Below, piece by piece: positions 15,458-60,455 of a stretch of DNA of 64,000 bases (position 1 is its first letter; each line of letters begins with the position of its first letter). The stretch comes from a virus. Taxonomy: Duplodnaviria; Heunggongvirae; Uroviricota; Caudoviricetes. A program made the translations under genes and the position numbers. The stretch is taken from the IMG/VR virus record IMGVR_UViG_3300042564_003265; one strand, written 5' to 3'. The notes beneath the pieces were generated by a model. It was not told the DNA's origin, searched no databases, and was given only the letters and a program-made list of their open reading frames with translations.

Positions 15458-15458
15458 A

Positions 15459-16137: not shown

Positions 16138-16472
16138 AGTCTTCGTGTTAAATAATCGTAGGTCTCATTTAATATTAGTCGAGCATCCATATGACTTATC
16201 TCATAATCCACACCGGTGATTCCCCTATAACTCAAATAAAGATATCTCCTCACCTCAGACGGACTTGTTATCTGTCCATCCCTAATAAAACCACTCGACC
16301 TATTGTAAAGGTCCCAAGCCGATTGACAATGTATATGACGAATGTCGGTTATCCCGTGATAACGAACATAATGATAGTCCAACCTCCTATTATATTCTCG
16401 AAGAAACTCAATGGTATTGCTACTCACCTCACCACGATTGTTGGTCAAGAATTTAAATGGTCTCATATCCAA
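16134..16472 (-). CDS. FKF-motif family small protein (MDMRPFKFLTNN)
   Basis: N-terminal family motif. Confidence 0.5.
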   Translation of the reverse strand: MDMRPFKFLTNNRGEVSSNTIEFLREYNRRLDYHYVRYHGITDIRHIHCQSAWDLYNRSSGFIRDGQITSPSEVRRYLYLSYRGITGVDYEISHMDARLILNETYDYLTRRL

Positions 16473-18759: not shown

Positions 18760-19057
18760 TATATTGAATTTGTTCTTCAACAATCTCATCAATCATCGGT
18801 TGGTTCTCCAACTCCTCAATAACAATATTAATTGCTTCCGGATAATTGGTGTGACCTTTTTGGAAATAGATACCTGCAAGGCCTAATACTTCATTGTTAA
18901 TGTAGTGACGGTTCTTACCCTTACCATTCACAATTTCGTGGTCCATTGACACATCATCCCAATCTTCCAACACACACCTATGTCCACCTTTTATTTTGTA
19001 ATGTAATCTCACAATATTATTGTGAGAAAATTGTTTGATGAATTCCCCTAATTTCAT
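18746..19057 (-). CDS. hypothetical protein
   Basis: ORF. Confidence 0.45.
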   Translation of the reverse strand: MKLGEFIKQFSHNNIVRLHYKIKGGHRCVLEDWDDVSMDHEIVNGKGKNRHYINNEVLGLAGIYFQKGHTNYPEAINIVIEELENQPMIDEIVEEQIQYSEAI

Positions 19058-19387
19058 TTAAAAATTTTTAATTAGTCCAAATAAAAAACTGATTTGTACT
19101 TTAATACCTTGTCCCCATTCTATATAAAATAATGGGTGGCCATAATTGATTTCTAAAAAAGAAACCCAACTTCTTCCTACTTTGTAGTAGTCAAAAGCAA
19201 ATAGCTCAATGTTTAATCTCATTTTACTTAATTTTAATCTGTTATGTCAACGTGAAAAAATAATGAATCCCATTTCGAATGTGCAAGAAAACGTGAACCG
19301 TCTTTACATTCATAAAGATTAACATCTCGACCATTTACAACATCAGTAAATCGACGACTAATGAATTTTGCAAATAGTCTTTTCATT

Positions 19388-19648
19388 TTACAATTGTTGC
19401 ACTTTTAACATTACATCTGTAACATCTTCAGGTCTTAACCAACCAATCACATCTTCAGTGATGGGTGTGTCGTATGTTAAATCACCGTTTTCATTTAAAA
19501 CTGCCAATTCATATAGTCCTTTATCACCACCATAAGAATAGTCGTGTTTAACAACTGAAACCCCATACCCATTATCAAAAAAAGTACGAGACACAACACC
19601 ATTATTGAATGAGTGTGGTTTAAATTCTAAGTCTTTAAATGTTTTCAT
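19388..19648 (-). CDS. small conserved protein, paralog of 24187-24465
   Basis: KTFKDLEF ... GVSV ... GLYEL ... Y.TP ... VTDVMLKVQQL is shared with the ORF at 24187. Confidence 0.5.
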   Translation of the reverse strand: MKTFKDLEFKPHSFNNGVVSRTFFDNGYGVSVVKHDYSYGGDKGLYELAVLNENGDLTYDTPITEDVIGWLRPEDVTDVMLKVQQL

Positions 19649-19653
19649 ATGTT

Positions 19654-19824
19654 TTAGTTTTTGTCTTCTTTAATTGATTGAGCAAGAAAAAATAAAAAAA
19701 AGAAAGTGGTTAACGCCCATCTATATGGTTCAATCGGCGTGTTAAACTTATATTGGGATGTAACGTATCCACCCAAGACAAATGCTTGTAGGTATGTTAC
19801 TAACTTAATTAAATTCTTTCTCAT
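19654..19824 (-). CDS. small membrane protein
   Basis: Internal start MRKNLIKL... chosen to avoid overlap. Hydrophobic C-terminal half. Confidence 0.35.
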   Translation of the reverse strand: MRKNLIKLVTYLQAFVLGGYVTSQYKFNTPIEPYRWALTTFFFLFFLAQSIKEDKN

Positions 19825-19825
19825 A

Positions 19826-20020
19826 TTAATATCTTCTTTTAATAAACCAAAAAAATGAATTCGGTGATGAACCAATTCTAACTTGTTTTCTATGTTTACC
19901 CGGTTGGTATTTGTTTTGTGATAAGTTGTGATGTCTCATACCCGCACCGTTTATGTGTAACATCGGATTACAAGATACCAAAAATATTCCAGTTAATAAC
20001 AAAAAAAATATTCTTTTCAT
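19826..20020 (-). CDS. small secreted or membrane protein
   Basis: N-terminal signal-like MKRIFFLLLTGIFLVSC. Confidence 0.4.
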   Translation of the reverse strand: MKRIFFLLLTGIFLVSCNPMLHINGAGMRHHNLSQNKYQPGKHRKQVRIGSSPNSFFWFIKRRY

Positions 20021-20118
20021 AATTTAAAATTTACCCCATTGAGATTTGTGTCTGTTTTCTTCGGCAATCTTAAACCCTAACCATATTTCTTTGAAGAATG
20101 ATTTTATTTTATTCATAA

Positions 20119-20361
20119 TTAATATTTGTTTTTTTCTGATTTACCTAAATGTATTCGACCTTTAACAGTTCCATTAAAATTATCCTCTTCAATATTTCTA
20201 TCAACAATCAATGATGTACCATTTAGACTTATCATTTCTTGAAGTGTTTTCTTTGCAATTGAATTGGCATATTTTCTTTTGTGTTTGGTATTATCAGCAC
20301 CTAACAATGGTGCTTCAAATTCAACCTCCAACTCTAAATTAACTGTGTACTTAAATAACAT
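20119..20361 (-). CDS. hypothetical protein
   Basis: ORF with its own promoter at 20366-20396. Confidence 0.45.
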   Translation of the reverse strand: MLFKYTVNLELEVEFEAPLLGADNTKHKRKYANSIAKKTLQEMISLNGTSLIVDRNIEEDNFNGTVKGRIHLGKSEKNKY

Positions 20362-21085: not shown

Positions 21086-21778
21086 CTATATTTTCTTTTT
21101 TGTTTGTATCCATTGTTTGATTATTTTATATAAATCTTTTGCCAATTCTTTATGTCCATCTTCTGAATAATGACCATCATTCATTACACCTAACGTTTCG
21201 AGTGTTAGAGTTTCGTAATTATATAACGGAATCACATCTTCAAAAAAACTTTTAATATTCTCATCATCTTTCTCTCGACTTAAATCTGAAAAATACCAAA
21301 AGACAGGACAGATTTCCTCACCACAAATCTTTTTTATTACTTTTGTGTAGTTGGAAACCTCTTTATAATATATACTTGAGGAATTACGATTCACCCCAAT
21401 TTCCTCTAAACTTTTTTCGGACACAAATCTGTTGGGAGATTTACAACCGGCCTGAATCATCACCTTCTCAAACTTGTTGTTGTCATCTGCGATTCTGAAT
21501 CTGTTTGGATATGTCCAGTTGACGATTACGATATCCCCATCCTCAATTTTATCCATAACTTCTATGAAACTATGGAATATTTCATCATTAGAATTACCGG
21601 CAGATGCAAAGATTTCTATGTGACAATTTAATTTATCTCTAATAATTTCACCATAAGACAATGGTGAATAACCTTTCCAAATGTGGTATCTAACCCTATA
21701 ATCAACAGGGTCGTAAAGTTTCGCGTCGAAGTCACTAAACCTCTGACTGAATGAGTCTCCGAATATCCAAATTTTCAT
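21086..21778 (-). CDS. SGNH/GDSL hydrolase family protein, paralog 1
   Basis: Block I at the N-terminus (MKIWIFGDSFSQRF) and block V DxxH near the C-terminus (DGHYSEDGHKELA). Confidence 0.55.
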   Translation of the reverse strand: MKIWIFGDSFSQRFSDFDAKLYDPVDYRVRYHIWKGYSPLSYGEIIRDKLNCHIEIFASAGNSNDEIFHSFIEVMDKIEDGDIVIVNWTYPNRFRIADDNNKFEKVMIQAGCKSPNRFVSEKSLEEIGVNRNSSSIYYKEVSNYTKVIKKICGEEICPVFWYFSDLSREKDDENIKSFFEDVIPLYNYETLTLETLGVMNDGHYSEDGHKELAKDLYKIIKQWIQTKKKI

Positions 21779-22384
21779 TTATAACGAATGTATTCTAGTG
21801 TTTATTTCTTCATAAAATTTATCAGCCACAATCTGATTCCCAACCTCATCGAACATATTATCAATTACAGTTGCACCATTCTCCTCAAAATATTTAACCA
21901 AACAAGTTGTCGATTCATTACACAAGTAACTTCTCTTAGACTTAAATGATGGTCTGGCAGGATAAATCAATCTATCCTCATTACTCGACCAAAAGAATAG
22001 ACTAAATCTTTTTGTTTTAGCCAACTCATCTAAAATATTTTCATAGTAATAAATTTGTTCACACCATTTCTCCGATTGTCTATCTCTTGTGAGATTTTCA
22101 ATAAACAAAGAATCAATGTGTTCATCTCCTAAATCGTTTATATCATAACTAACAAACTCATTGTCTACCGCCATTCTGAAGTTAGTAACTTTACCCCAAC
22201 CAACAATCACAATATCATTTGAATTAATTAAATCACATACTCCACAAAAATCGTCGAATATTTGATAGTTGCAAGTTTTATTTTTCGATAAATTCTTAAC
22301 TTCATATCCAAACTTATCTCCCAATAATTTGGTCCAACTACTTGAACTAAAACTATCACCAAATATCCAAATTACTCTATTCAT
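21779..22384 (-). CDS. SGNH/GDSL hydrolase family protein, paralog 2 (possibly degenerate)
   Basis: VIWIFGDSFSSS N-terminus. Block V reads DNMFDEVGNQ with no His. Confidence 0.45.
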   Translation of the reverse strand: MNRVIWIFGDSFSSSSWTKLLGDKFGYEVKNLSKNKTCNYQIFDDFCGVCDLINSNDIVIVGWGKVTNFRMAVDNEFVSYDINDLGDEHIDSLFIENLTRDRQSEKWCEQIYYYENILDELAKTKRFSLFFWSSNEDRLIYPARPSFKSKRSYLCNESTTCLVKYFEENGATVIDNMFDEVGNQIVADKFYEEINTRIHSL

Positions 22385-23130
22385 ATTAATTTTGGTTTTA
22401 ACTTTTCTGAAATTTCTTTATAAAAAACTTCAGCTTGTATTTGATGTCCAATTTCTCCAAAGTGAACATCTTTAACCTCTCCTTTAGTTTCCACTTCGAT
22501 TTTCTTCGCACCTTTTTTTCTAATTAGGTGGGTTATGGTATCGTCAACAGAATCGCTACACAAATATCTTCTTTTATTTTTAAAATTTGAGGGTTCATTA
22601 TAAATAACTTCGGAGTCACTTGACCAAAAAAATATATCAAAACCTTTAAACTTTGATAGTTCTTCCATAACATCCTCTCTAAAATATATTTCCTCAACAT
22701 ATAATCTATCAGTTCTTTCCACCAAAAGAAAATCCAACACATCAGTTGTCATAAATGATGTTGTATCAACATTGGTGGTCATATTTGGGAGGACTGACAT
22801 AAATTTCGGTAACCCTCTCTCATCATATACTGCAGCTCGAAATCTTGATATTTGTGTCCAACCTACAATAACAATATCACCTTTAGAAATAAATTCACAA
22901 TTATCACAGAACTCTCCAAAAATATGGTCATTAGATGCACCACCCATACCTTTGTTTTCGACCTCCATACCTAACATTTTAGATAGTCTAGTTGGCCAAA
23001 TATCGGGTAGGGTACCACCTAACCATTCTCTATATAATGTATAATTGTTTTTGGTTCCATTTGCATTTATAGATTGGACAGGATGATATTCCGCAGTGTA
23101 ACTACAACCGAATGTCCACAATTTACTCAT
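22381..23130 (-). CDS. SGNH/GDSL hydrolase family protein, paralog 3
   Basis: MSKLWTFGCSYTAEY (G-C-S replacing G-D-S) and DVHFGEIGHQIQAE. Confidence 0.5.
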   Translation of the reverse strand: MSKLWTFGCSYTAEYHPVQSINANGTKNNYTLYREWLGGTLPDIWPTRLSKMLGMEVENKGMGGASNDHIFGEFCDNCEFISKGDIVIVGWTQISRFRAAVYDERGLPKFMSVLPNMTTNVDTTSFMTTDVLDFLLVERTDRLYVEEIYFREDVMEELSKFKGFDIFFWSSDSEVIYNEPSNFKNKRRYLCSDSVDDTITHLIRKKGAKKIEVETKGEVKDVHFGEIGHQIQAEVFYKEISEKLKPKLI

Positions 23131-23875
23131 TGTATAAATTGTTTCTATAACGATTTATATCTCTTAAAAAATATTCAGCCATCACTTTATGACCTACCTC
23201 ACCATAATGTTCATCATCTGGTAGTTCTCTAAGAGTTTCCTCGTGAAAACTTTTCGCACCATATTTGCGTAAAAATTTAGTCATATCAGTATCTGCTTCA
23301 GGAACCAAACACTTGAACTTTAACTTAAATTCTTTGTCTTCTTTATTTATGATATGTTTATCTGCCGACCAAAAATACAATTCAAATTGTTTGGCAAGAC
23401 TCAATTCTTTTATCAATTTCATAAAAGAATACACCTCATCACACCAAATCATATTGGTTCTATTAACCAATATTTGTTGCATAACTTTTAAATCGTATTG
23501 AATATGACTATGTGCTTCGGATGGAATTACAGAAACCCATTGGTGGTACCTTCCCATATTATTATTAACAATATCGAAACGTTCTTTTCTTGACCACTCA
23601 ATAATTACAGTGTCTCCCGATTGAATTCTATGACAATTTGCAACGAATCTATTGAATATTCGGTAATTAGAGAAACCGGGATATCCCATATTTTCTTTCT
23701 CTAAACCTAATTCTCTTGCGACAATAGTTGGCCACACATCAGTAACTTCTCCATTTCTTAAATTTCGATATCTGATGTTGTTATTCTCATTCTCTTCACT
23801 TTGGCCGGGTTTAATATACGATGTGAAATCGTACTCCGCAGTGAAACTACAACCAAATGTCCACAATTTACTCAT
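23123..23875 (-). CDS. SGNH/GDSL hydrolase family protein, paralog 4
   Basis: MSKLWTFGCSFTAEY and DEHYGEVGHKVMAE. The four paralogs 1-4 are tandem and overlap each other by 4-8 nt. Confidence 0.5.
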   Translation of the reverse strand: MSKLWTFGCSFTAEYDFTSYIKPGQSEENENNNIRYRNLRNGEVTDVWPTIVARELGLEKENMGYPGFSNYRIFNRFVANCHRIQSGDTVIIEWSRKERFDIVNNNMGRYHQWVSVIPSEAHSHIQYDLKVMQQILVNRTNMIWCDEVYSFMKLIKELSLAKQFELYFWSADKHIINKEDKEFKLKFKCLVPEADTDMTKFLRKYGAKSFHEETLRELPDDEHYGEVGHKVMAEYFLRDINRYRNNLYNE

Positions 23876-30237: not shown

Positions 30238-30238
30238 A

Positions 30239-30430: not shown

Positions 30431-30434
30431 AATT

Positions 30435-30932: not shown

Positions 30933-30990
30933 AATAATGTTAGTAAGTCTAAAACAAATTTAGATATTTTTATTGATATTGCAAAATTTT

Positions 30991-31021: not shown

Positions 31022-31026
31022 TCATT

Positions 31027-33202: not shown

Positions 33203-33212
33203 AAAATAATTT

Positions 33213-33626
33213 TTAACTATCAAACCAAAAGACAAATCGAGGTACCATTCCACGATTGTCAAGGGCTTTCATTATATCAAGTACAAGATGGTAATCAGTA
33301 CCAATGAATACATCTTCATCTTCTTTTTTAAGCATCTCCTCAATTAGCATTTCATATTCGTTGAGTGATAACCAAGAGGGTGTATGGGTATCTTCTTCTT
33401 TATATGCCTCCCTCACTTCATAACTAACAACACCTTTCGGTATACCCTTTGGATGAACTCCGAATTTGAGTTCGGGGTCATATCTGACTATCCCATCAGT
33501 AAGATAACCAAATAGATTATAGTTTCTACCTAAACTAAGTTCTTCCGATACTGAATACCAATGTGGTTCATCTCGTTTATCATCTTTATCTCTATACTCT
33601 ATGTATCCGTGGATGTCGCACCCCAT
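33213..33626 (-). CDS. hypothetical protein
   Basis: ORF. Confidence 0.45.
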
Positions 33627-34210
33627 AACTTTAAATTTTTTGAAATGTATATTGTTTTATTCATCCAAATGGTTTCTTTTTTTATTATATTATTAAAAAA
33701 AATCCATTCATTTGGATATTCGTTTTTTAATTTTTTTAATAATTCTTTTTTAGTTAAATGTAATTTGTTATTTAAGAAATCAAATTCAGTTCTATTATAT
33801 GGGAACTTATCCCCAAACAATTTTGATAGGTTTTTTAAATTAACAAACTCAAATACGGGTTTCTTTTTTTCTATATCACTATAGAGTGTTTCCCACATAT
33901 TAGTAGACCAATGTTCCGCGTAATTAGTTTTAAATGTATTAACCACCGGTTTCAAGTCTAACTCATCTAACATATTCTCTCTAGCATATGTTAAAACTTC
34001 AGTATGAAGTGCAGTAATAAAGTGTTCTTCAGGTTCGCGATAAATAAAATACGTTATCTTATTTTGGTCAAAATCTTGTTGACTTATTTCTGTGTGGCAC
34101 CCAAGTCTCGTCCAACCCAAAGGACTGGTATAGTCATTCAACCATCTTGTTCCGCACTTTAAAGGTGCTAGAATTGTGTAATTAGTATACCAATACCTCT
34201 TTAATACCAT
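33599..34210 (-). CDS. hypothetical protein (weak sulfotransferase-like PSB-loop resemblance)
   Basis: ILAPLKCGTRWL loosely resembles the 5'-PSB loop P(K/R)SGTTW. Confidence 0.3.
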   Translation of the reverse strand: MVLKRYWYTNYTILAPLKCGTRWLNDYTSPLGWTRLGCHTEISQQDFDQNKITYFIYREPEEHFITALHTEVLTYARENMLDELDLKPVVNTFKTNYAEHWSTNMWETLYSDIEKKKPVFEFVNLKNLSKLFGDKFPYNRTEFDFLNNKLHLTKKELLKKLKNEYPNEWIFFNNIIKKETIWMNKTIYISKNLKLWGATSTDT

Positions 34211-49511: not shown

Positions 49512-49878
49512 AATTGTTTTTTTCTATTTTCAATCTTTTTTTATTTTCTCTCTCAAGTTCAGATGAATATCTTTCTTTCATTCCGATTATTCTATGGAAA
49601 TCTTTATACGCCGTTGGGTGGTAATCTTTAAGGTACGATATCCCCAATTCGTATTCAAATAAAACATCTTCATATCTAAGTTCCTTTTTAGACCAACCAT
49701 CCTCAGCAAATTGTAGTTCTGATTTTAATGAGTCAATTACATTTCTTAAAGAATCTTCTTTACTAATGTTAATTGGTGGGGGGACCATATTGTGTGGTTT
49801 GTTTACCGCAATTATTGTTAAAAGTAGTATAACGGCTATACCAATAATTAGACTAGTCGTTGTGTCTCTGTTATCCAT
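49504..49878 (-). CDS. membrane-anchored coiled-coil protein
   Basis: N-terminal TM helix followed by charged helical segments. Confidence 0.45.
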   Translation of the reverse strand: MDNRDTTTSLIIGIAVILLLTIIAVNKPHNMVPPPINISKEDSLRNVIDSLKSELQFAEDGWSKKELRYEDVLFEYELGISYLKDYHPTAYKDFHRIIGMKERYSSELERENKKRLKIEKNNYE

Positions 49879-50525
49879 TATATTAATTTGTTTTTAAGTT
49901 TCTCTGAAAAAATTGAAGCTAATTTTTTATGTGCGTTTTCACCATAATGATTATCTTCCACCACTTTAGTTTCCATTTTTATCGTTTCAAGTTTCAACAA
50001 CTTATTTACGTTCAGATTAACATTATCATCAAAAGGAGTCCAATGAATTATCTTATTATTTTTCATTGTGTGATTAATGAAATGAATCCAGGCGTTAACT
50101 TCGTTGTAATATAATAAATTATCTCTATTAACAAAAATTTCTTCGATAGTACTTCTTGAAAGGTCGGTGTGATGACTAATATGGAAGTCGGTGACTGTAC
50201 CCGGCACAAACTTTACCCAATCACCATCTTTTGCCGCCAATCTAAATCTAATAACACTTGACCAACCGATTATTACTATGTCATTTTCTTTAATTCTGTG
50301 TACATTCTTACATAGGGTTCCAAAAATAGAATAGTTATCATACCCACACACTCCACAATTTTCCGATTCAATACCTAACTCTTCACCTAAGAAATCGCAA
50401 TATACTTTTGGAGTGTATCCTTTGAATTCGATATAGTTTTTAGACCATTCGGAATTCATATCATACCTCTGAGTGTAACTATCACCAAAACACCAAAGTT
50501 TATTTTTCATTTGAGTAATATGCAT
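49878..50525 (-). CDS. SGNH/GDSL hydrolase family protein, paralog 5
   Basis: KLWCFGDSYTQRY and DNHYGENAHKKLA. True start may be the internal MKNKLW. Confidence 0.5.
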   Translation of the reverse strand: MHITQMKNKLWCFGDSYTQRYDMNSEWSKNYIEFKGYTPKVYCDFLGEELGIESENCGVCGYDNYSIFGTLCKNVHRIKENDIVIIGWSSVIRFRLAAKDGDWVKFVPGTVTDFHISHHTDLSRSTIEEIFVNRDNLLYYNEVNAWIHFINHTMKNNKIIHWTPFDDNVNLNVNKLLKLETIKMETKVVEDNHYGENAHKKLASIFSEKLKNKLI

Positions 50526-50718
50526 TTCTTTGAAATTGTACCCCCATAAAAAATGTTAACCATCTCATACTAAAACCGAACGCGGGTGTAAAAAGACCGG
50601 TTTCAAAGAACACATCTTTTCTGTAAAAAAATACCACCGTTGGTATAATAAACCAATGATACCTTTTATTATAAATAAAAAAATCTGTTAGATATTTTGG
50701 TTCTTTAATTTTTGTCAT
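50500..50718 (-). CDS. small membrane protein
   Basis: Hydrophobic ORF bridging neighbouring genes. Confidence 0.3.
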   Translation of the reverse strand: MTKIKEPKYLTDFFIYNKRYHWFIIPTVVFFYRKDVFFETGLFTPAFGFSMRWLTFFMGVQFQRNAYYSNEK

Positions 50719-51188
50719 ATGATTGTTTTTATTCTTTTTTGTTTAACGTATTTGTTCTTTATATGAATGTAAGAATCAAATAATGTCATATCTAATGGAA
50801 TGTTTAAATATTCACACAATTCATATAACGATTCTGATGGTTCGTCCTTAAAAATGTCTTCATAATAATAAATTTTATTATTACCTGCAACCGAATCAAA
50901 AATTGAAGTCCATTCGTTATTTATTTTTCTTTTAATGTAAATAACTTTGTCAAACTCTTTTATGATTCTATACGAATGTTCCAACAATGATTCACCATTT
51001 TTAAATAAAAGTGGGTCTGGTTCTTTTGAAAAAACTGTTTTAACAATACAATCGTCACCCCATTCAACTTCGGTTGTTCTTTTAAATGGTTCGTACATTG
51101 AAACGTAATGTTTTGGGAACGACTCCACAATAAATTTAAATAAAGAACTGGTACCTGAATTTTGGATTCCGAATATTAAAACTTTCAT
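50715..51188 (-). CDS. P-loop-like protein, weak sulfotransferase-like N-terminus
   Basis: MKVLIFGIQNSGTSSLFKF resembles the sulfotransferase PSB loop (G.P(K/R)SGTT.L). Confidence 0.3.
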   Translation of the reverse strand: MKVLIFGIQNSGTSSLFKFIVESFPKHYVSMYEPFKRTTEVEWGDDCIVKTVFSKEPDPLLFKNGESLLEHSYRIIKEFDKVIYIKRKINNEWTSIFDSVAGNNKIYYYEDIFKDEPSESLYELCEYLNIPLDMTLFDSYIHIKNKYVKQKRIKTII

Positions 51189-52776: not shown

Positions 52777-53475
52777 TTAAATTAAATTTTTTAGTTGCGG
52801 GTAAATAAATTCTTCAAATATTATTTTTTGTGATTCGTTTCCAAAGTGTGAATCTTTCGGTATTGGCGGTATGTTATTTTCTTTAACAAACTCATCCACC
52901 GTACCATAAAGTATACGTATTTTTTTTATCAATTCCAAATAACCGGATTTTTCTGCCAACTTATGTATATCCTCATACCAACTGAAGAAAACTACTTTCT
53001 TTCCATAACCCTCACATATTGTATTGATTGTCAATATAGTATGGAATATTTTTAGTTCTAAATTAAATCTTGAGATGACTGATTGTTCATATATGAAATC
53101 TAAAATTTTATCAGCATCGTATCTTTTACCAAACTCAGATTCAAACGCCGGTTTGTTTCTCATTGTGGTAAAATTAAAATATGTGTATCCATTGATTTGT
53201 GTTGGAGAGTGTAAACCTTTCTCATATGAATTTATCATTGACGCACCTACCATTGTTCTCGCGGGGTGTGTTAGTTGAACAACAAAGAAGTCTAAATCCG
53301 GATTGTTATCAATTATGTATTTTATTTTTTCAATGTTATATTCATTTGACCCTCCTCTTGAGGATGATGAAATTATCTCAGCACCATATTTTTCACCCAT
53401 ATGAAACCACCAAGGTTCTCCCCCATAATTTAATGAACTATGAGAACAACCTGTAACTCCAATTTTCATATTCAC
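52777..53475 (-). CDS. SGNH/GDSL hydrolase family protein, paralog 6 (divergent)
   Basis: MNMKIGVTGCSHSS and C-terminal DSHFGNESQKI. Confidence 0.4.
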   Translation of the reverse strand: MNMKIGVTGCSHSSLNYGGEPWWFHMGEKYGAEIISSSSRGGSNEYNIEKIKYIIDNNPDLDFFVVQLTHPARTMVGASMINSYEKGLHSPTQINGYTYFNFTTMRNKPAFESEFGKRYDADKILDFIYEQSVISRFNLELKIFHTILTINTICEGYGKKVVFFSWYEDIHKLAEKSGYLELIKKIRILYGTVDEFVKENNIPPIPKDSHFGNESQKIIFEEFIYPQLKNLI

Positions 53476-54019: not shown

Positions 54020-55375
54020 ATGAAGAAAAAGATATTATTACTGTCTGATGATTTAAGAATGACATCAGGTATCGCCACTATGTCTAAAGAGTTAGTGTTG
54101 GGTACCATTCACAAATATGATTGGGTTCAATTGGGTGCGGCAATTCACCATCCTGAGATTGGTAAAATTGTTGATGTCAATGATGATGTTAGAGAAAAAA
54201 CAGGTGTTGAGGATGCTAGTTTAAAAATCTACACAAGTAATGGTTATGGTGATATTCATACATTAAGAAAAATTATTGATATCGAAAAACCGGATGCCAT
54301 TCTACACTTCACGGACCCACATTATTGGCAATGGTTATATGATAACGAACACGAAATAAGACAACAGGTTCCGATATTATATTACCATATTTGGGATGAT
54401 TTACCTGACCCGAAATACAACAGAGACTATTATGAAAGTTGTGATTGGATTGGATGTATTTCTAAACAAACATATGGTATTGTTCATAGAGTTGGTAAGA
54501 TGATTGACAAAGCAACTTACAAACCTTTAGAAGATTGGCAAATTAGTTATGTTCCTCACGGAATTAATCCAAATGTTTTTAAACCTTTGGAAACCGTTAG
54601 TGATGACATAAAGAAATTATTATTCGGAGACAAGGAATATGATTTTATTTTATTCTACAACAACAGAAACATAAGAAGGAAGCAACCATCTGATGTGATT
54701 TATTCTTATAAACTATTCTGTGATAGTTTAACAAAAGAACAATCTGAGAAATGTTTGCTATTGATGCACACAGCCGCGGTGGATGAGAATGGAACAGATT
54801 TACCTGCAGTGATTGAAGCGTTATGTCCTTACGATGTTAAGTTCACCGGTTTGAAATTAGAACAGGACAGATTAAATGAAATTTACAATCTTGTTGATTG
54901 TACTATCAATATTGCAAACAACGAAGGATTTGGTTTGACAACCGCAGAATCGTTGATGGCGGGTACACCAATCATAGTTAACGTAACCGGTGGATTACAA
55001 GACCAATGTGGTTTTAATTACACCGCAGACAACTATATAACATTTGGAACATTACACAATAGAAAAACACACGGTTCAACAATACACGGTGAGTGGGTTG
55101 TACCTGTTTGGCCATCTGCAATCAATTTAAATGGTTCTGTACCAACACCGTACATTTTCGATGATAGAGTAAATGATGAAGAAGTTGCCGGCGCGATTAG
55201 TAAAGTTTATGAATGGTCGAAAGAAGAAAGAAAAGAAAGAGGATTGAAGGGTAGAGAATTTATGATACAAAACCTTTCGTCAGAAATTATGGCAAATACT
55301 TTAATTAAAGGTATTGAACAAACATTTCAAAATTATAAACCAAAAAAGAGATTTGACTTATACAAGATAGTTTAA
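54020..55375 (+). CDS. glycosyltransferase, GT4 (group 1) family
   Basis: C-terminal EX7E-type signature NNEGFGLTTAESLMAGTPIIV. Confidence 0.65.
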   Translation: MKKKILLLSDDLRMTSGIATMSKELVLGTIHKYDWVQLGAAIHHPEIGKIVDVNDDVREKTGVEDASLKIYTSNGYGDIHTLRKIIDIEKPDAILHFTDPHYWQWLYDNEHEIRQQVPILYYHIWDDLPDPKYNRDYYESCDWIGCISKQTYGIVHRVGKMIDKATYKPLEDWQISYVPHGINPNVFKPLETVSDDIKKLLFGDKEYDFILFYNNRNIRRKQPSDVIYSYKLFCDSLTKEQSEKCLLLMHTAAVDENGTDLPAVIEALCPYDVKFTGLKLEQDRLNEIYNLVDCTINIANNEGFGLTTAESLMAGTPIIVNVTGGLQDQCGFNYTADNYITFGTLHNRKTHGSTIHGEWVVPVWPSAINLNGSVPTPYIFDDRVNDEEVAGAISKVYEWSKEERKERGLKGREFMIQNLSSEIMANTLIKGIEQTFQNYKPKKRFDLYKIV

Positions 55376-55376
55376 T

Positions 55377-56624
55377 ATGAAACCATTTTTATTATTTAGA
55401 GGACCAGTTAAAACAAGAAGTGGATATGGTGCACATTCGAGAGATTTATTACAAGCACTATATGAAATGGATATATTCGAAATTAAGATTGATAGTTGTA
55501 TGTGGGGGGTAACTCCGATGACTGCACTCGAAAAGGATAATCAATTCCATATGTGGATAGAATCAAACATTGTTAGGTCACTCAATACCACACCCGACAT
55601 CTATGTTCAAGTTACTGTACCAAATGAATTCGAGAGAAAAGGAAAATTTAACATAGGAATTACTGCAGGTATTGAGACCACGGTCGCTCCTAAAGATTGG
55701 ATTGACGGATGTAATAGAATGGATTTAATCATTACTACATCGAAATTCTCAAGAGATGTTTTATTATCAACAGTTTACAATGAGAATGAAAACAACACAG
55801 GTAAGTTAGTTAAACAATATAAGATAGAGAAACCGGTCGAAGTATTATTTGAAGGTGTTGATGTATCCATTTTCAATAATGAATTTAAAGGTATTGACAT
55901 TGATATAGAAGAAGACTTTGCATATTTGTTTGTTGGTCATTGGTTAAAGGGTTCACTTGGTCAGGATAGAAAAGATGTTGGTATGATGATTAAATGTTTT
56001 ATGGAAGCATTTAAAGATGAGGAAGACAAACCCGCATTGATTTTAAAAACATCATCAGCAACTTTCTCAGTTAAAGAAAGAGAAAATATGAGGAGAAAGA
56101 TTGAGGACATTACAAAGGGTTATGAAAATCCTCCATCGGTTTATCTATTGTTTGGTGAGTTAACGAACCAAGAAATGAATGAACTATACAATCATCCAAA
56201 GGTTAAGTCTATGGTGTCAATAACTAAGGGTGAAGGATTCGGTAGACCTCTATTAGAATTTTCAATGACAGGTAAACCAATCATCGCATCGAATTGGTCA
56301 GGACATAAGGACTTTCTTCCAATGGATAAAGCAATTATGATTGGTGGGACATTAACTGATGTTCACGAAAGTACTGTGGATAATTTCATTCTTAAAAATT
56401 CCAAATGGTTTACAGCAAACTATAATGAATTTGCTGAAGTGTTAAAATTAGTTAAGAAAGATTATCAAGAGTTTAAAGAAAAGTCTGAATTGTTAAGAGA
56501 GGAAAATAAGGAAAAGTTTTCTTTAAATAATATGAAAGAAGTATTCTCTAATTTACTTAAACCATACACAAATAAACCAAAAGAGCATAAATTAGTTCTA
56601 CCTAAATTAACAAAAATTAAATAA
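55377..56624 (+). CDS. glycosyltransferase, GT4 (group 1) family
   Basis: KGEGFGRPLLEFSMTGKPIIAS signature. Confidence 0.65.
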   Translation: MKPFLLFRGPVKTRSGYGAHSRDLLQALYEMDIFEIKIDSCMWGVTPMTALEKDNQFHMWIESNIVRSLNTTPDIYVQVTVPNEFERKGKFNIGITAGIETTVAPKDWIDGCNRMDLIITTSKFSRDVLLSTVYNENENNTGKLVKQYKIEKPVEVLFEGVDVSIFNNEFKGIDIDIEEDFAYLFVGHWLKGSLGQDRKDVGMMIKCFMEAFKDEEDKPALILKTSSATFSVKERENMRRKIEDITKGYENPPSVYLLFGELTNQEMNELYNHPKVKSMVSITKGEGFGRPLLEFSMTGKPIIASNWSGHKDFLPMDKAIMIGGTLTDVHESTVDNFILKNSKWFTANYNEFAEVLKLVKKDYQEFKEKSELLREENKEKFSLNNMKEVFSNLLKPYTNKPKEHKLVLPKLTKIK

Positions 56625-57095: not shown

Positions 57096-57716
57096 ATGAT
57101 ACTAAGTTACGCAATTACAATTTGTAATGAATTGGAAGAAATTAAAAGACTATTACCGTTCTTACTTGAGAAGAAAGGTGTTCAAGATGAAATCGTAATT
57201 CTTTTTGATGAGAAGAACGGGAGTCCTGAAGTTCTTGAATACTTGTTAACGTTTAATAAGTTACCGAATGTTCAAACTTGGAGAGGATTTGACTTTGAAA
57301 ACAATTTTGCTGATTGGAAAAATAAACTATCAGATTACTGCAAAGGTGATTACATATTCCAAATTGATGCGGATGAACTGATTAGTGAGATGTTTATGAT
57401 TAATATTAAATCTATATTGGAATCGAATCCTGAAGTTGATTTATATTATCTATCAAGAATAAACATAGTTGACGGTATAACCGATGAACATATTAGGAAA
57501 TGGGGATGGAGTGTGAACCAAAGAGGATGGATTAACTTCCCTGATAAACAAGGAAGAATCTTTAAAAAGAATTTAAGATGGTATGGTAGAGTTCACGAAA
57601 GAATAATGGGTGCCGAAACAGTAACCTCATTACCAAGTGATGAAGATTTCTGTATCATTCACCATAAGAATATTGAAAGACAAGAGAAACAAAATAATTT
57701 TTACACAACAATTTAA
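57096..57716 (+). CDS. glycosyltransferase family 2-like
   Basis: N-terminal SYAITICNE and the DxD motif QIDADE. Confidence 0.45.
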   Translation: MILSYAITICNELEEIKRLLPFLLEKKGVQDEIVILFDEKNGSPEVLEYLLTFNKLPNVQTWRGFDFENNFADWKNKLSDYCKGDYIFQIDADELISEMFMINIKSILESNPEVDLYYLSRINIVDGITDEHIRKWGWSVNQRGWINFPDKQGRIFKKNLRWYGRVHERIMGAETVTSLPSDEDFCIIHHKNIERQEKQNNFYTTI

Positions 57717-57717
57717 G

Positions 57718-58719
57718 ATGAAGATATTAATTACAGGAGTTGCCGGTTTATTAGGTTCAAGATTGGTTGACTATATTGTTGAGAATCACCCCGGTACTGA
57801 AATTGTCGGTATTGATGATTTAAGTGGTGGTTACTTTGAGAATGTTAACCCTAAGATAACCGAGTTTAGAAAATTTAATTTAGTTGATGGGAACATCTCA
57901 GGATGTTTTGAAGAACATAAATTTGATTACGTTTATCATTTCGCAGCATACGCTGCTGAAGGATTGTCACCATTCATTAGAACGTACAACTATCAAAACA
58001 ATTTAGTTGCAACTTCACGTATCATTACTGAATGTATAAAACACAACGTTAAGAGATTGGTGTTTACATCAACGTTAGCTGTGTATGGTCATCAAGATGG
58101 TAATATGTTTGATGAGGCCCAAGTACCAAAACCTATTGACCCATATGGTGTGGCGAAGTATGGTTGTGAAATGGATATACAAATTGCCGGTGAACAACAC
58201 GGATTAGATTGGTGTATCATTCGTCCACACAATGTGTTTGGTGTTAAACAAAACATATGGGACAAATATAGAAACGTATTGGGTATATGGATGTATCAAC
58301 ATATGATTGGTGAACCAATGACAATCTTTGGTGACGGTACTCAAACAAGAGCGTTTAGTTATATTGATGATAGTTTAGAACCATTATGGAAAGCATCACA
58401 AGATGAAAGAGCAAGTAAACAAATAATTAACCTCGGAGGTATTAAAGAATATTCAATTAACGAAGCCAATGAAATATTAAGAGAAGTAGTTGGTGGTGGT
58501 TCGGTTCAATATTATGAACAACGACACGAAGTTAAACATTCAATACCGACTTGGCAGAAGTCAATAGACCTATTAGACTTTGAGTTTAAGACGGATTTAA
58601 AAGATGGGTTAACAAAGATGTGGGAATGGGCAAAGAAACAACCTGTAAGAGAGAGATTCGTGTGGCCATCTTACGAATTAGATAAAGGAATTTATTCATT
58701 TTGGAAAACTAAAAAATAA
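57718..58719 (+). CDS. NAD-dependent nucleotide-sugar epimerase/dehydratase (extended SDR)
   Basis: MKILITGVAGLLGSRL (GxxGxxG Rossmann) and YHFAAYAAEG. The track ORF starts 81 nt upstream. Confidence 0.75.
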   Translation: MKILITGVAGLLGSRLVDYIVENHPGTEIVGIDDLSGGYFENVNPKITEFRKFNLVDGNISGCFEEHKFDYVYHFAAYAAEGLSPFIRTYNYQNNLVATSRIITECIKHNVKRLVFTSTLAVYGHQDGNMFDEAQVPKPIDPYGVAKYGCEMDIQIAGEQHGLDWCIIRPHNVFGVKQNIWDKYRNVLGIWMYQHMIGEPMTIFGDGTQTRAFSYIDDSLEPLWKASQDERASKQIINLGGIKEYSINEANEILREVVGGGSVQYYEQRHEVKHSIPTWQKSIDLLDFEFKTDLKDGLTKMWEWAKKQPVRERFVWPSYELDKGIYSFWKTKK

Positions 58720-58722
58720 TAT

Positions 58723-59346
58723 ATGATAAGTGTTATAATGCCGACGATGTTCGTGCCAGATGGTATTGTTGAATTAGTTAAAGAAGTTACCTCACATCCA
58801 TTAGTTAGTGAGTTAATTTTAATCGACAATACAAATGATGATGAGATTCACATTAAAGAATCAATACCTAAACTTGTTTACATTAAAGAAGGTAAGAATA
58901 CATACGTAAACCCTGCTTGGAACAAAGGGGTTACAATTGCCAAAGAAGATAAGTTGATGTTCTTAAATGATGACATCACAACAGATTGGTCATTAATCGA
59001 TACTATTCACGATAGTATAACCGAAGAAAAAGGAATCATTGGATTAGGTGAGGGTTGTTGGACAGAACCAAGAGGTAGATTTATGTTAACACCAATCTAC
59101 CAATTAATTGGTGGGTTCGCTTGTCTGTTCTTCATACATAAGAAATCTTATAGAATGATACCTCCTGATATTAAGGTATGGTATGGTGATAACTTTTTAA
59201 TCCATAAAGGACCAAAACAAGCATTTCAAATATTGAATTGGAAAATGGGTGGTCACATTTCAAAAACAGTTTTAAAACCTGAATTTAGTCCGGTCATTAG
59301 AGAAGATGGTGTGGCTTGGGCAAACGTAATATCAAGAATGAGATGA
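58723..59346 (+). CDS. glycosyltransferase family 2-like
   Basis: MISVIMPT ... LILIDNTNDDE. Confidence 0.45.
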   Translation: MISVIMPTMFVPDGIVELVKEVTSHPLVSELILIDNTNDDEIHIKESIPKLVYIKEGKNTYVNPAWNKGVTIAKEDKLMFLNDDITTDWSLIDTIHDSITEEKGIIGLGEGCWTEPRGRFMLTPIYQLIGGFACLFFIHKKSYRMIPPDIKVWYGDNFLIHKGPKQAFQILNWKMGGHISKTVLKPEFSPVIREDGVAWANVISRMR

Positions 59347-60455
59347 GTATATCCTTAGTGATGGCGGTCTACAATAAATTAGACCTAACAAAAAAATGTT
59401 ATGAAAGAGTTCGTGAACTTTATCCTGAATCACCATTTGTAATTAGTAGTGGTGGTTCAAGTGATGGAACAAAAGAATGGTTAGAATCATTAGATGATGA
59501 ACACCTATCTTATATACACGACGATGATAGATTAACATTTTCTGACACATACAATGCAGGTATTAAATTGGTTGATACTGATAAGTTAGTATTGATACAT
59601 AACGATATGGTGTTGGGTGAACAGTTTCTTGAAAATTTGGAAACTTTATTGGACGAGAATCCAAATACTTTAATCTCATATACAACAGTTGAACCTCCTA
59701 TTTTCAAGGGACATATGAGAGCTGGTAAAGTTCTCTTAGACTTGGGTTCGGGGTTTGATGATTTTAATTATTTCCATTTTAATAATTTTGTTAATCAATG
59801 GAAGGGTAGTAAAAATCTTTACAACGGTGCAGTATTTTTTATGTCAGGAACCAAAAAAATGTTTGATGATATTGGTGGTTTCGATGGGTTTAGTTTTGTA
59901 CCGGCATTTTGTGAAGATGATGACTTCTTACTTCGTGCGAAACTAAAAGGATATGAATTAAAAACTTGCGACTCTGCTATAGTTTATCATTTTGTTTCGC
60001 AGACATCAAGATTCAGTGATGACTACAAGAAAGATAGAATGTTATATGAAGTCTCATCAAATAGAAACTTTGTTAGAAAATGGGGCATACCATTCTCATC
60101 GTTTAATGAACTTAGATTTTGGGAGGAAAAAGATTTTAAATACAAGACATTCACTATGGGTTTAACAACCAATAGTCGAAACAGACTTATGGAGATTGAA
60201 CCATTCTTCGATAAAATCGAATTAGGGACGATTCCTGAGGATTACATTCAAAATGAACAGAAGAATACTCGTTATGATTTAAGGTCGAAATTTACGTTCA
60301 CAGACAACGTAGATGTGATGATTTATGAAACTTCACCATTCGATGACAATGACGTTAGAACATTACACAAATTAAGGTTATCTATACCTTACTACGAACC
60401 GGGTGAGTATGAAATTGGTAATATGTTAATAGAAATAAAAAAGGAGGTTATTTAA
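59316..60455 (+). CDS. glycosyltransferase family 2
   Basis: ISLVMAVYNKLDLTKKCYERV and SGGSSDGT (GT2 DxD region). Confidence 0.5.
   Translation: MGKRNIKNEMSISLVMAVYNKLDLTKKCYERVRELYPESPFVISSGGSSDGTKEWLESLDDEHLSYIHDDDRLTFSDTYNAGIKLVDTDKLVLIHNDMVLGEQFLENLETLLDENPNTLISYTTVEPPIFKGHMRAGKVLLDLGSGFDDFNYFHFNNFVNQWKGSKNLYNGAVFFMSGTKKMFDDIGGFDGFSFVPAFCEDDDFLLRAKLKGYELKTCDSAIVYHFVSQTSRFSDDYKKDRMLYEVSSNRNFVRKWGIPFSSFNELRFWEEKDFKYKTFTMGLTTNSRNRLMEIEPFFDKIELGTIPEDYIQNEQKNTRYDLRSKFTFTDNVDVMIYETSPFDDNDVRTLHKLRLSIPYYEPGEYEIGNMLIEIKKEVI

What the first reader, a model, noticed from the sequence alone, without database searches (positions are those of the whole stretch)
21086..23875. Six paralogous SGNH/GDSL hydrolases (four in tandem) alongside a phage-encoded glycan biosynthesis cassette
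ORFs at 21086, 21779, 22381, 23123, 49878 and 52777 share an N-terminal block I ((K/I)(L/I)W(T/I/C)FG(D/C)S(F/Y)(T/S)) and, except for paralog 2, a C-terminal DxxH block, the architecture of SGNH esterases and acyl-transferases. Two copies carry G-C-S instead of G-D-S, and paralog 2 has lost the catalytic His, which may be neo-functionalisation or decay. Separately, 53.8-60.5 kb encodes two GT4 and three GT2 glycosyltransferases and an NAD-dependent sugar epimerase/dehydratase. Two weak sulfotransferase-like P-loop proteins (33599, 50715) are also present. A phage carrying its own polysaccharide-synthesis and (de)acylation toolkit could remodel host surface glycans (superinfection exclusion or seroconversion during infection), build or strip acetyl groups on a receptor polysaccharide, or glycosylate its own virion proteins.
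Basis: partly seen in the sequence, partly recalled or inferred. Interest (0 to 1): 0.65.

Follow-up and report, generated by a model that had tools for sequence, protein, structure and literature searches.

The report
Phage SGNH esterase-like gene array
An uncultivated large phage carries six diverged copies (four in a row, one of them catalytically dead) of a small esterase/acyltransferase-type protein. In related environmental phages this protein family sits inside sugar-building gene clusters, so it probably trims or adds acyl groups on a phage-made glycan.

The parts
23123..23875 (-). p4, SGNH-fold paralog (250 aa). G-C-S, block II Gly, W-S...R, E-T, D-(D)E-H.
   Evidence: BLASTP to p3 gives 38% identity, E 4e-49. 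Signature residues are present. dN/dS is 0.06-0.11 against the L006-8 orthologues. Weak Pfam DUF6071 hit, E 1.7e-4.
22381..23130 (-). p3, SGNH-fold paralog (249 aa) and the reference copy. Key residues are S10, G64, N67, D85, W91, T92, R96, W169, E214, T215, D221 and H223.
21779..22384 (-). p2, catalytically dead paralog (201 aa). It lacks the 30-aa insert after block I, the block II Gly (K), T92 (G), R96 (N), T215 (N), H223 (M) and H229 (N).
   Evidence: Orthologues in L006-8 carry K at the His position and GNS or GDG in block I. dN/dS is 0.08-0.09.
21086..21778 (-). p1, the most diverged member of the array (230 aa). G-D-S with a full signature (W169 is Y).
   Evidence: BLASTP to p5 gives E 9e-18 and to p4 E 2e-11. 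Signature. dN/dS is 0.06-0.08.
49878..50525 (-). p5, dispersed paralog (215 aa; the true start may be M6 at 50510). G-D-S with a full signature. Its reading frame overlaps a 124-aa membrane ORF, which in turn overlaps thyA.
   Evidence: BLASTP to p3 gives E 2e-23. Weak Pfam Lipase_GDSL hit, E 0.027. p5-type genes lie next to ThyA and the GT cassette in L053-L059.
52777..53475 (-). p6, remote SGNH-fold relative (the likely start is the ATG at 53469, giving 230 aa). G-C-S-H-S, G-G-S-N, L-T...R, D-S-H. It abuts the glycan cassette divergently.
54020..56624 (+). Two GT-B (Glycos_transf_1, GT4-type) glycosyltransferases: 54020-55375 and 55377-56624.
   Evidence: Pfam PF00534 scores 29.2 and 27.3 bits against a cutoff of 26.4.
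57096..60455 (+). GT2 (57096-57716), SDR NAD-dependent epimerase/dehydratase (57637-58719), GT2 (58723-59346) and GT2 (59316-60455).
   Evidence: Pfam PF00535 scores 26.8, 28.5 and 50.4 bits against a cutoff of 23.3. PF01370 E 2.7e-40. The SDR is GalE-like but below the NCBIfam cutoffs.
50715..51188 (-). Sulfotransferase-like P-loop protein (157 aa). It is a shortened member of a 'pRSGSTSL' family that follows SGNH arrays in other phages.
   Evidence: The family profile (A8) hits CurM sulfotransferase at E 4.8e-4 and NodH at E 7e-3. Pfam Sulfotransfer_3 is weak in 5 of 15 members. The window copy lacks about 60 aa. Adjacency is shown.
33599..34210 (-). Second P-loop-like protein (203 aa, 'APLKCGTRW'). 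Its membership of this system is tentative.
   Evidence: No Pfam, NCBIfam or PHROG hit. There are 7 homologues in loci near SGNH arrays (L025/26, L054, L064, L074, L084). The motif resemblance to the sulfotransferase PAPS-binding loop is my inference only.

Best explanation
The six ORFs are members of a phage-borne, previously undescribed branch of the SGNH/GDSL hydrolase superfamily. Five of them (p1, p3, p4, p5, p6) are most likely active cytoplasmic serine esterases or O-acyltransferases. Their inferred catalytic apparatus is a Ser nucleophile just after strand beta1 (G-[C/D]-S), a block II Gly for the oxyanion hole, and a D-x-H acid/base pair before the last helix. They most likely act on sugar, nucleotide-sugar or nascent-glycan intermediates of a phage-encoded glycan pathway. 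That is, they add, move or remove acyl (probably acetyl) groups. The diverged paralogs would then cover different positions or sugars. p2 is a catalytically dead copy kept by selection, probably as a binding or regulatory partner of the active copies.

Shown: the fold, the paralogy, the conservation of the residues, the loss of those residues in p2 under purifying selection, and the genomic association with sugar genes.

Inferred: catalytic activity, the glycan-type substrate, the cytoplasmic site of action, and the role of p2.
For: - Sequence bridges. 15 of 100 family members weakly match Pfam Lipase_GDSL. hhalign to TesA 1IVN pairs S10 with S10 and G64 with G44. An array member in L022 passes the Pfam Lipase_GDSL_2 and Lipase_GDSL gathering scores, and jackhmmer seeded with it retrieves all six window ORFs. 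That bridging subfamily ends in GDYHPN, the block V 'HPN' motif with D-x-H spacing.
- Conservation over 100 members: G8 100%, S10 98%, G64 80%, N67 97%, D85 100%, W91 98%, R96 90%, E214 98%, T215 95%, D221 95%, H223 98%.
- Selection: dN/dS is 0.06-0.16 for all four array genes.
- p2 has lost G64, T92, R96, T215, H223 and H229. Its orthologues show GNS or GDG in block I and K at the His position. A second, independent dead lineage exists in L048-50.
- Context. In L022 the array lies between UDP-glucose/GDP-mannose dehydrogenase and GT25 on one side, and DUF5672, DegT aminotransferase, two SDR epimerases, GDP-mannose 4,6-dehydratase and a 2OG oxygenase on the other. All are on one strand.
- Across 35 dereplicated IMG/VR locus groups, 21 have tandem arrays, 16 have SDR/DegT/UGDH/GT genes within 10 kb (14 within 3 kb), and 12 have sulfotransferase-like genes.
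- In the window, p6 abuts the GT/epimerase cassette and p5 lies 3.5 kb from it. Relatives L055/57/59 have cassette, MTase, two p5-type SGNH genes and ThyA close together.
- No signal peptide: every member starts M-x-x-L-W-x-F-G-[CD]-S directly at beta1.
- Precedent for SGNH-type enzymes editing O-acetyl groups at the free-sugar or CMP-sugar level: the NeuA esterase domain and CASD1 (PMC8319020).
Against: - None of the six passes any curated family threshold.
- The block III Asn of the oxyanion hole is absent, and the Asp-His spacing is one residue shorter than canonical. Catalytic competence is therefore not guaranteed. I could not inspect active-site geometry because model coordinates are not exposed.
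- The four-gene array itself has no sugar gene within 10 kb, either in the window or in its closest relatives L006-9. It sits among small hypothetical genes and a tRNA-repair-like module.
- 10 of 35 locus groups show neither sugar nor sulfotransferase-like neighbours.
- No baseline frequency of sugar genes in random phage loci was computed. The 80 loci kept are the best tblastn matches to p3, so they are a biased sample.
- No experimental data exist for any member.
Confidence: 0.55

Rival explanations
1. The copies are general lipid or thioester hydrolases (lysophospholipase, acyl-CoA thioesterase or arylesterase type, like TesA or PAF-AH). The phage would use them for membrane remodelling, lysis or metabolic takeover, unrelated to glycans.
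Against: Fold neighbours include carbohydrate esterases (CE2, CE3, CE16) and peptidoglycan O-acetyl enzymes at least as prominently. The recurrent neighbours in other phages are nucleotide-sugar enzymes and sulfotransferase-like proteins, not lipid genes. The conserved Trp, Arg, Glu and Thr residues fit a polar or sugar-type ligand better than an acyl chain, though this last point is inference.
Confidence: 0.15
2. They are receptor-modifying enzymes that act from outside the cell. They would be virion-associated or released deacetylases that strip O-acetyl groups from host LPS or capsule, like G7C gp63.1 or the Klebsiella prophage SGNH receptor-binding proteins.
Against: Each protein is only 200-250 aa and consists of the SGNH domain alone. 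There is no N-terminal anchor, no trimerisation domain and no signal peptide. The genes lie in non-structural regions, 9-40 kb from the tail-fibre gene. A dead copy and up to five tandem copies are hard to fit on a virion. No PHROG tail family matches.
Confidence: 0.1
3. They act on modified nucleotides or on phage DNA. For example, they could remove or transfer acyl groups during DNA hypermodification or glycosylation, with the GT cassette glycosylating DNA rather than a polysaccharide.
For: p5 is translationally coupled to thyA through a small ORF, and p6 abuts a DNA methyltransferase. Phage GTs are known to hypermodify DNA (Pyle et al. 2024, cited in PMC12619734).
Against: The ThyA homologue passes the NCBIfam thymidylate synthase equivalog cutoffs. 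There is no evidence of a hydroxymethylase. The recurrent neighbours (UGDH, DegT, GMD, SDR epimerases) are typical of polysaccharide-type sugar synthesis. No SGNH enzyme is known in DNA modification, to my knowledge.
Confidence: 0.07
4. The copies are non-enzymatic or decaying duplicates. On this view the array is evolutionary debris, or a family of binding proteins that merely keeps the SGNH fold.
For: p2 and the L048-50 lineage show that the fold can persist without the catalytic residues. The canonical block III is missing from the whole family.
Against: S10, D221 and H223 are 95-98% conserved across 100 diverged members. All four array genes show pN about 0.1 against pS about 0.6. The four-gene order is conserved in relatives at 70-86% identity.
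Confidence: 0.05

Closest known systems
SGNH/GDSL hydrolase superfamily (Pfam Lipase_GDSL, Lipase_GDSL_2; for example E. coli TesA 1IVN, CE2/CE3 carbohydrate esterases, PatB/OatA)
   Different: There is no block III G-x-N-D; a conserved W-[T/S]-x3-R takes its place. The spacing is D-x-H instead of DxxH. Cys replaces Asp in G-D-S in about 60% of the close members aligned. There are extra invariant residues (W169, E214, T215) and a beta-hairpin insert after beta3. The six window proteins fall below all curated thresholds.
NeuA C-terminal O-acetylesterase domain and CASD1 (SGNH-type enzymes that edit O-acetyl groups on free or CMP-activated sialic acid)
   Same: These are SGNH-type enzymes that work at the monomer or nucleotide-sugar stage of glycan synthesis and are encoded within glycan loci (PMC8319020). 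This is the mode of action proposed here.
   Different: No sequence relationship was shown. No sialic-acid pathway genes were identified in the window. NeuA is a fusion to a cytidylyltransferase and CASD1 is a Golgi membrane protein. The proteins here are free-standing and multi-copy.
Phage tail-fibre or tailspike SGNH deacetylases (G7C gp63.1, 4qnl; Klebsiella prophage SGNH receptor-binding proteins)
   Different: Those are domains of large trimeric virion fibres. The proteins here are 200-250-aa single-domain proteins in non-structural regions, arranged in tandem arrays that include dead copies.
NanS-p sialate O-acetylesterases of Stx prophages
   Same: This is a phage-borne esterase family present in many paralogous copies per host genome (PMC10462455).
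   Different: As I recall, NanS-p copies are spread over different prophages, one per phage, and belong to the SASA/DUF303-type branch with an N-terminal DUF1737. No Pfam match of that kind was found here. In the window the copies are tandem within a single virulent-type genome.
Glycan-synthesis clusters of large viruses and phages (for example mycobacteriophage virion glycosylation, giant-virus fibril glycans)
   Same: They combine virus-encoded GTs with nucleotide-sugar tailoring enzymes (DegT-type aminotransferase, 4,6-dehydratase, epimerases).
   Different: As far as I could find, tandem SGNH arrays, sulfotransferase-like genes and the multi-copy U400 family have not been described as parts of such clusters.

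Membership tests
SGNH/GDSL hydrolase superfamily | Three-layer alpha/beta/alpha SGNH fold | tested here: met
SGNH/GDSL hydrolase superfamily | Block I: Ser nucleophile in G-D-S-(L) immediately after strand beta1 | tested here: met
   G8 is 100% and S10 98% conserved. p3 S10 aligns to TesA S10. The middle residue is C in p3, p4 and p6, and D in p1, p2 and p5. The Ser is lost in the L008 orthologue of p2.
SGNH/GDSL hydrolase superfamily | Block II: oxyanion-hole Gly after beta2 | tested here: met
   p3 G64 aligns with TesA G44. It is G in 80% of members and A or S in 18%. It is K in p2.
SGNH/GDSL hydrolase superfamily | Block III: G-x-N-D with oxyanion-hole Asn after beta3 | tested here: not met
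   After beta3 the family has G/E/Q-W91-[T/S]92-x3-R96. No Asn is conserved at positions 92-95. The same holds in the Pfam-passing subfamily, which has S-Y-P-x-R.
SGNH/GDSL hydrolase superfamily | Block V: D-x-x-H before the last helix | tested here: inconclusive
   D221 (95%) and H223 (98%) are conserved in the right place, but with one spacer residue (D-x-H). A simple pattern count gave 98 of 148 D-x-H and 39 DxxH. The bridging subfamily has GDYHPN. The geometry could not be inspected. p2 has M at the His position.
SGNH/GDSL hydrolase superfamily | Score above the Pfam gathering threshold for Lipase_GDSL or Lipase_GDSL_2 | tested here: not met
   The best result for the six is p5 against Lipase_GDSL at 15.1 bits (cutoff 23.6). 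A homologous array member, L022:10720-11337, does pass (34.8 vs 32.9 and 24.5 vs 23.6).
SGNH/GDSL hydrolase superfamily | Ser-dependent esterase or acyltransferase activity | not testable with these tools
   This needs biochemistry: p-nitrophenyl acetate, acetylated sugars, and S10A/H223A mutants.
Phage SGNH receptor-binding proteins (G7C gp63.1 type) | SGNH domain embedded in a large fibre or spike protein with an N-terminal virion-anchoring domain | tested here: not met
   The proteins are 201-250 aa and the SGNH domain spans the whole length. No PHROG tail family matches. The genes lie outside the tail-fibre region.
NanS / NanS-p sialate O-acetylesterase (SASA-type) | Match to the SASA/DUF303-type esterase domain (with DUF1737 in NanS-p) | tested here: not met
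   No such Pfam family appears at E up to 1 for any of the six, nor among 100 family members.
PAPS-dependent sulfotransferases (for ORF 50715-51188) | 5'-PSB loop (P-[KR]-[ST]-G-[ST]-T) and 3'-PB motif (R...S), with a significant profile match | tested here: inconclusive
   The family consensus is pRSGSTSL ... R.N..EQ.ES. The profile hits CurM ST at E 4.8e-4 and NodH at E 7e-3. Pfam Sulfotransfer_3 and _1 hits are weak and below cutoff. The window copy reads GIQNSGTSS and lacks the 3'-PB-like segment.
GT-B (Glycos_transf_1) and GT-A (Glycos_transf_2) glycosyltransferases, and SDR epimerase/dehydratase (cassette 54020-60455) | Score above the Pfam gathering threshold | tested here: met
   All six ORFs pass. 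Donor and acceptor specificities are not assignable, because all NCBIfam equivalog scores are far below cutoff.

The most novel reading that the evidence does not exclude
The SGNH arrays, the sulfotransferase-like proteins and the multi-copy unknown 'U400' proteins together form a phage-specific glycan-tailoring module. This module would build a heavily decorated (O-acylated, possibly sulfated) glycan during infection, for example on virion proteins or the host envelope. Each SGNH paralog would write or erase one acyl position. The dead copies (p2, and the independent L048-50 lineage) would serve as non-catalytic subunits of hetero-oligomeric complexes. That would be a combinatorial glycan 'decoration code' encoded by large environmental phages, using an SGNH branch with a non-canonical oxyanion hole.
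Probability: 0.2. Interest if true: 0.75.

Novelty: new variant of a known kind. Interest (0 to 1): 0.5.

Why it matters
If the reading is right, large uncultivated aquatic phages carry a modular enzyme set that both synthesises and fine-tunes glycans by acylation and perhaps sulfation. This goes well beyond the single glycosyltransferases or tail-spike deacetylases known from cultured phages.

The family has thousands of cluster representatives in metagenomes. It is invisible to Pfam, PHROGs and NCBIfam, and has no tblastn match in GenBank phage genomes. Many 'hypothetical' genes in viromes could therefore be annotated at once.

The non-canonical active site (no block III Asn, D-x-H, G-C-S) and the repeated evolution of conserved dead copies are also of interest to SGNH enzymologists.

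It is not a new kind of system. The fold and the chemistry are well known, and the substrate remains a guess.

Tried and rejected
- Pfam, PHROGs and NCBIfam on the six proteins gave nothing above threshold.
- A profile of the family against PDB sequences gave only noise: cytochrome b5 at E 0.02 and rhamnogalacturonan acetylesterase at E 1.8.
- blastn of the array region and tblastn of p3, p5 and p6 against 50,697 GenBank phage records found no match.
One found nothing. One found a single weak relative on an Aquirufa MAG contig, which says little about the host.
- The literature has no paper mentioning DUF6071, and nothing on tandem SGNH paralogs in phages.
- The afdb50 fold library was unavailable.
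- The idea that p1 is truncated in relatives (191 aa in L001/L004) was rejected. L001 is 100% identical to the window, so the difference is only a gene call.
- The idea that thyA is a hydroxymethylase feeding DNA glycosylation was rejected, because it passes the thymidylate synthase equivalog cutoffs.
- Promoter and terminator scans were uninformative in this AT-rich DNA. Counts were at or below shuffle expectation, and no terminator-like site lies inside the array.
- There are no tRNA genes in the window.
- The U400 family could not be assigned by Pfam or by PDB sequence search. My first U400 alignment wrongly included two UGDH genes.
- The first count of 'sugar' neighbours (19 of 35) was inflated by drift of the 707-aa fusion query. 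It was recomputed strictly as 16 of 35.
Full report
**1. What is there**

The four ORFs in 21086-23875 (p1 230 aa, p2 201 aa, p3 249 aa, p4 250 aa) all lie on the minus strand. They are packed with an 8-nt overlap, a 4-nt overlap and a 0-nt gap. p5 (49878-50525) and p6 (52777-53475) are also on the minus strand.

BLASTP shows that p1-p5 are true paralogs. p3-p4 share 38% identity (E 4e-49), p2-p3 give E 6e-30 and p1-p5 give E 9e-18. The weakest pair, p1-p2, gives E 4e-6. p6 has no significant BLASTP match to the others (E 6.8).

The window is phage DNA. It has a tail fibre with a T4-type distal C-terminus at 62690-63895, ParB and DNA methyltransferases. It also has T4 Rnl1, a Metallophos phosphoesterase and an AAA_33 kinase, and a bona fide thymidylate synthase. 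Positions 12381-33130 are 100% identical to a JGI metagenome contig, and the identical p3 protein occurs on contigs of up to 141 kb.

**2. Family assignment**

No curated model recognises the six proteins:
- Pfam gives only sub-threshold hints: p5 to Lipase_GDSL at E 0.027, and p4 to DUF6071 at E 1.7e-4.
- PHROGs gives nothing and NCBIfam gives nothing.
- A family profile finds no significant match among PDB sequences.

The sequence-level bridges are weak but agree with each other:
- 15 of 100 family members match Lipase_GDSL (best E 5.7e-6).
- hhalign of the family against E. coli TesA pairs p3 S10 with the TesA nucleophile S10, and p3 G64 with the TesA oxyanion Gly44 (E 5.8e-4).
- A short array member in another phage (L022:10720-11337) passes the gathering scores of both Lipase_GDSL_2 and Lipase_GDSL. 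jackhmmer seeded with it recovers all six window ORFs and no seventh.

p6 is tied to the others by profile-profile comparison (93%, E 2.5e-7). It is also tied by the fact that p6-type genes are interleaved with p3-type genes in arrays elsewhere.

**3. The active site is non-canonical**

Over 100 aligned members, the near-invariant positions (p3 numbering) are G8, S10, N67, D85, W91, [T/S]92, R96, W169, E214, T215, D221 and H223. G64 is Gly in 80%.
- Position 9 is Cys in 61% and Asp in 37% of these close members. G-C-S is therefore a normal family state, not an oddity of two copies. In the window it occurs in p3, p4 and p6.
- The block III Asn of SGNH enzymes is absent.
- The acid/base pair is spaced D-x-H, not DxxH. 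The Pfam-passing subfamily shows the same shortening inside an otherwise typical block V 'GDYHPN'.

I could not check side-chain geometry because model coordinates are not exposed. Catalytic competence is therefore inferred from conservation and position only.

All members start directly at beta1 (M-x-x-L-W-x-F-G-[CD]-S) with no signal peptide. This points to a cytoplasmic site of action.

**4. Paralog 2 is a retained pseudoenzyme**

p2 lacks the 30-residue insert after block I. It carries K for G64, G for T92, N for R96, N for T215, M for H223 and N for H229. Its orthologues in four related contigs (81% identity) have K at the His position and GNS or GDG in block I, so in one of them even the Ser is gone.

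Despite this, the gene is intact, its length is conserved, and it evolves under purifying selection as strong as that on its neighbours. pN is about 0.10 and pS about 0.6-0.65, giving dN/dS of 0.08-0.09. The other three array genes give 0.06-0.16. dS is near saturation, so these ratios are approximate.

Its nearest relatives outside the clade (L010-12, L016, L026) keep the Ser and His. The loss is therefore lineage-specific. A second, independent dead lineage (Ser to Asn, His to Asn) sits in the four- to five-copy arrays of L048-50.

**5. Distribution**

- The word-indexed protein search found only 14 clusters.
- The exhaustive profile search found 3,251 representatives at E <= 1e-3, and 283 at E <= 1e-30.
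- All hits listed by the indexed searches are unnamed or 'hypothetical protein' from metagenomes. The exhaustive library itself carries no names.
- tblastn of p3, p5 and p6 finds nothing in 50,697 GenBank phage records.
- Pattern-limited scans of 185,579 species genomes gave one weak hit, on an Aquirufa MAG contig.
- IMG/VR holds at least 216 confirmed loci, many on contigs of 100-335 kb.
- Foldseek against BFVD finds mostly uncharacterised proteins of uncultured Caudovirales, some labelled as SGNH hydrolase domain proteins.

The family therefore appears to be essentially phage-borne and environmental.

**6. Genomic context, the main new evidence**

HMM searches of the ORFs in 79 viral loci show that tandem arrays are the rule, with 2-5 adjacent copies in 21 of 35 dereplicated locus groups.

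In L022 the three-copy array sits in a single-strand block with this order:
- a 707-aa epimerase fusion, GT25 and UDP-glucose/GDP-mannose dehydrogenase;
- the three SGNH genes;
- DUF5672, a DegT/DnrJ/EryC1 aminotransferase, two SDR epimerases, GDP-mannose 4,6-dehydratase, a 2OG-Fe(II) oxygenase and a TPP E1 component.

The same neighbours recur across lineages. Counting only Pfam-anchored sugar genes, 16 of 35 groups have one within 10 kb of an array, and 14 have one within 3 kb. Twelve of 35 have a sulfotransferase-like gene, usually directly downstream. Ten have neither.

There are caveats. No random-locus baseline was computed. The loci kept are the best matches to p3. The window's own four-gene array, and that of its closest relatives (L006-9), has no sugar gene within 10 kb.

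Within the window, p6 abuts the cassette across a divergent intergenic region, and p5 lies 3.5 kb from it. Close relatives (L055, L057, L059) pack cassette, methyltransferase, two p5-type genes and thyA together.

**7. The cassette and the P-loop proteins**

All six cassette ORFs pass Pfam thresholds: two Glycos_transf_1, three Glycos_transf_2 and one NAD-dependent epimerase/dehydratase. Specificities cannot be assigned. The cassette is the only plus-strand block between about 14 kb and 64 kb, and the GC skew flips across it.

ORF 50715 belongs to a family with 30 other members in the fetched loci and the consensus M-K-I-L-I..pRSGSTSL...R.N..EQ.ES. The family profile hits CurM sulfotransferase (E 4.8e-4) and NodH (E 7e-3). 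Pfam Sulfotransfer_3 and _1 hits are weak. The window copy is about 60 residues shorter and lacks the 3'-PB-like segment.

ORF 33599 ('APLKCGTRW') has seven relatives near arrays but no database match.

**8. Interpretation**

The best-supported mechanism is that the five intact copies are cytoplasmic Ser/His acyl-esterases or O-acyltransferases. They would tailor sugars, nucleotide-sugars or nascent glycan made by phage-encoded enzymes. The paralogs would be specialised for different positions or sugars, and p2 would be a non-catalytic partner.

There is precedent for SGNH-type enzymes editing O-acetyl groups at the monomer or CMP-sugar stage: the NeuA esterase domain and CASD1 (PMC8319020).

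The rivals are generic lipid or thioester hydrolases, externally acting receptor deacetylases of the G7C gp63.1 or Klebsiella RBP type (PMC13123978), DNA-modification helpers, and inert duplicates. Each is less consistent with the size, the location, the lack of anchoring or signal sequences, the conservation pattern and the neighbourhoods.

The final target of the glycan (host envelope, virion or DNA) is not constrained by my data.

**9. Verdict**

The family is a new, phage-specific variant of the SGNH superfamily with an unusual active-site signature, recurrent tandem arrays that include conserved dead copies, and a recurrent association with glycan-synthesis and sulfotransferase-like genes. 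It is of moderate interest: useful for virome annotation and for phage glycobiology, but not a new kind of system, and with no biochemical evidence yet.

Noticed in passing
L022:4641-5954, 7921-9213, 15188-16360, 19043-20236 (also L010, L013, L016, L025, L036, L047 and others): An unknown family of about 390-440 aa ('U400') occurs in 2-5 paralogous copies per locus, right next to the SGNH arrays, in about 33 loci. It has no Pfam hit and no PDB sequence hit. Its conserved C-terminal motif is SxVTET...SEKxxKPI...PF..G..L..L..GF..FD..ID.SYD. It is not present in the window.
   Followed up: partly
L017, L018, L038, L039, L048-L050, L056, L058, L073, L081, L083; window 50715-51188: A sulfotransferase-like 'pRSGSTSL' family sits directly downstream of SGNH arrays in 12 of 35 locus groups, often as two tandem copies. 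The window copy is about 60 aa shorter and lacks the 3'-PB-like segment, so it may be inactive.
   Followed up: partly
L048:1367-2044, L049:8781-9458, L050:10001-10678: A second lineage of catalytically dead SGNH copies (Ser to Asn and His to Asn), independent of the window's p2, lies within four- to five-copy arrays.
   Followed up: partly
window 48417-50525: p5, a 124-aa predicted membrane ORF (49504-49878) and thyA (48417-49511) overlap by 1 and 8 nt, which suggests translational coupling. ThyA is 364 aa, with insertions relative to the 264-318-position models, yet it passes the NCBIfam thymidylate synthase cutoffs.
   Followed up: partly
window 27605-31461: A tRNA-repair-like gene set: cREC_REC (27605-28096), T4 Rnl1 RNA ligase (28089-29285), a Metallophos phosphoesterase (29282-29938) and an AAA_33 kinase-like protein (31027-31461). 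Band_7 (31493-32440) and a ferredoxin (32882-33262) lie nearby. The module is conserved in related contigs L086 and L087.
   Followed up: no
window 53476-60455: The GT/epimerase cassette is the only plus-strand block between about 14 kb and 64 kb, and the GC skew flips sign across it. This looks like an inverted, possibly acquired, module. A 12-bp-stem hairpin followed by a T run lies at 53757-53783, upstream of the cassette.
   Followed up: no
window 52777-53475 and 49878-50525: Start-codon corrections. p6 homologues begin MKIGVTGCS, so the real start is probably the ATG at 53469 rather than the GTG at 53475. p5 may start at Met6 (50510), as family members begin M-x-x-K-L-W.
   Followed up: partly
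window 47887-48420: An NlpC/P60-type peptidoglycan endopeptidase (E 1.4e-30 to the MepS-like model, below cutoff) lies just downstream of thyA. It is a possible lysis or cell-wall remodelling enzyme.
   Followed up: no
window 51753-52112 (+) and 52072-52773 (-): A DUF192 protein on the plus strand converges on, and overlaps by about 40 nt, the 3' end of an N6/N4 DNA methyltransferase gene. That methyltransferase gene itself abuts p6.
   Followed up: no
L085:23-856 (Aquirufa sp. MAG contig JBMSJH010000004.1): This is the only relative found in 185,579 species genomes. It is a 278-aa distant homologue at the end of a 22-kb MAG contig (GC 40%). It may be a mis-binned phage fragment or a hint at a Bacteroidota host.
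   Followed up: partly
L010-L016, L019-L037, L044-L047, L052 (for example L022:11340-12068): A DUF5672 protein immediately follows the SGNH array in about 30 loci, usually followed in turn by a conserved protein of about 555 aa of unknown function. Neither is present in the window.
   Followed up: no
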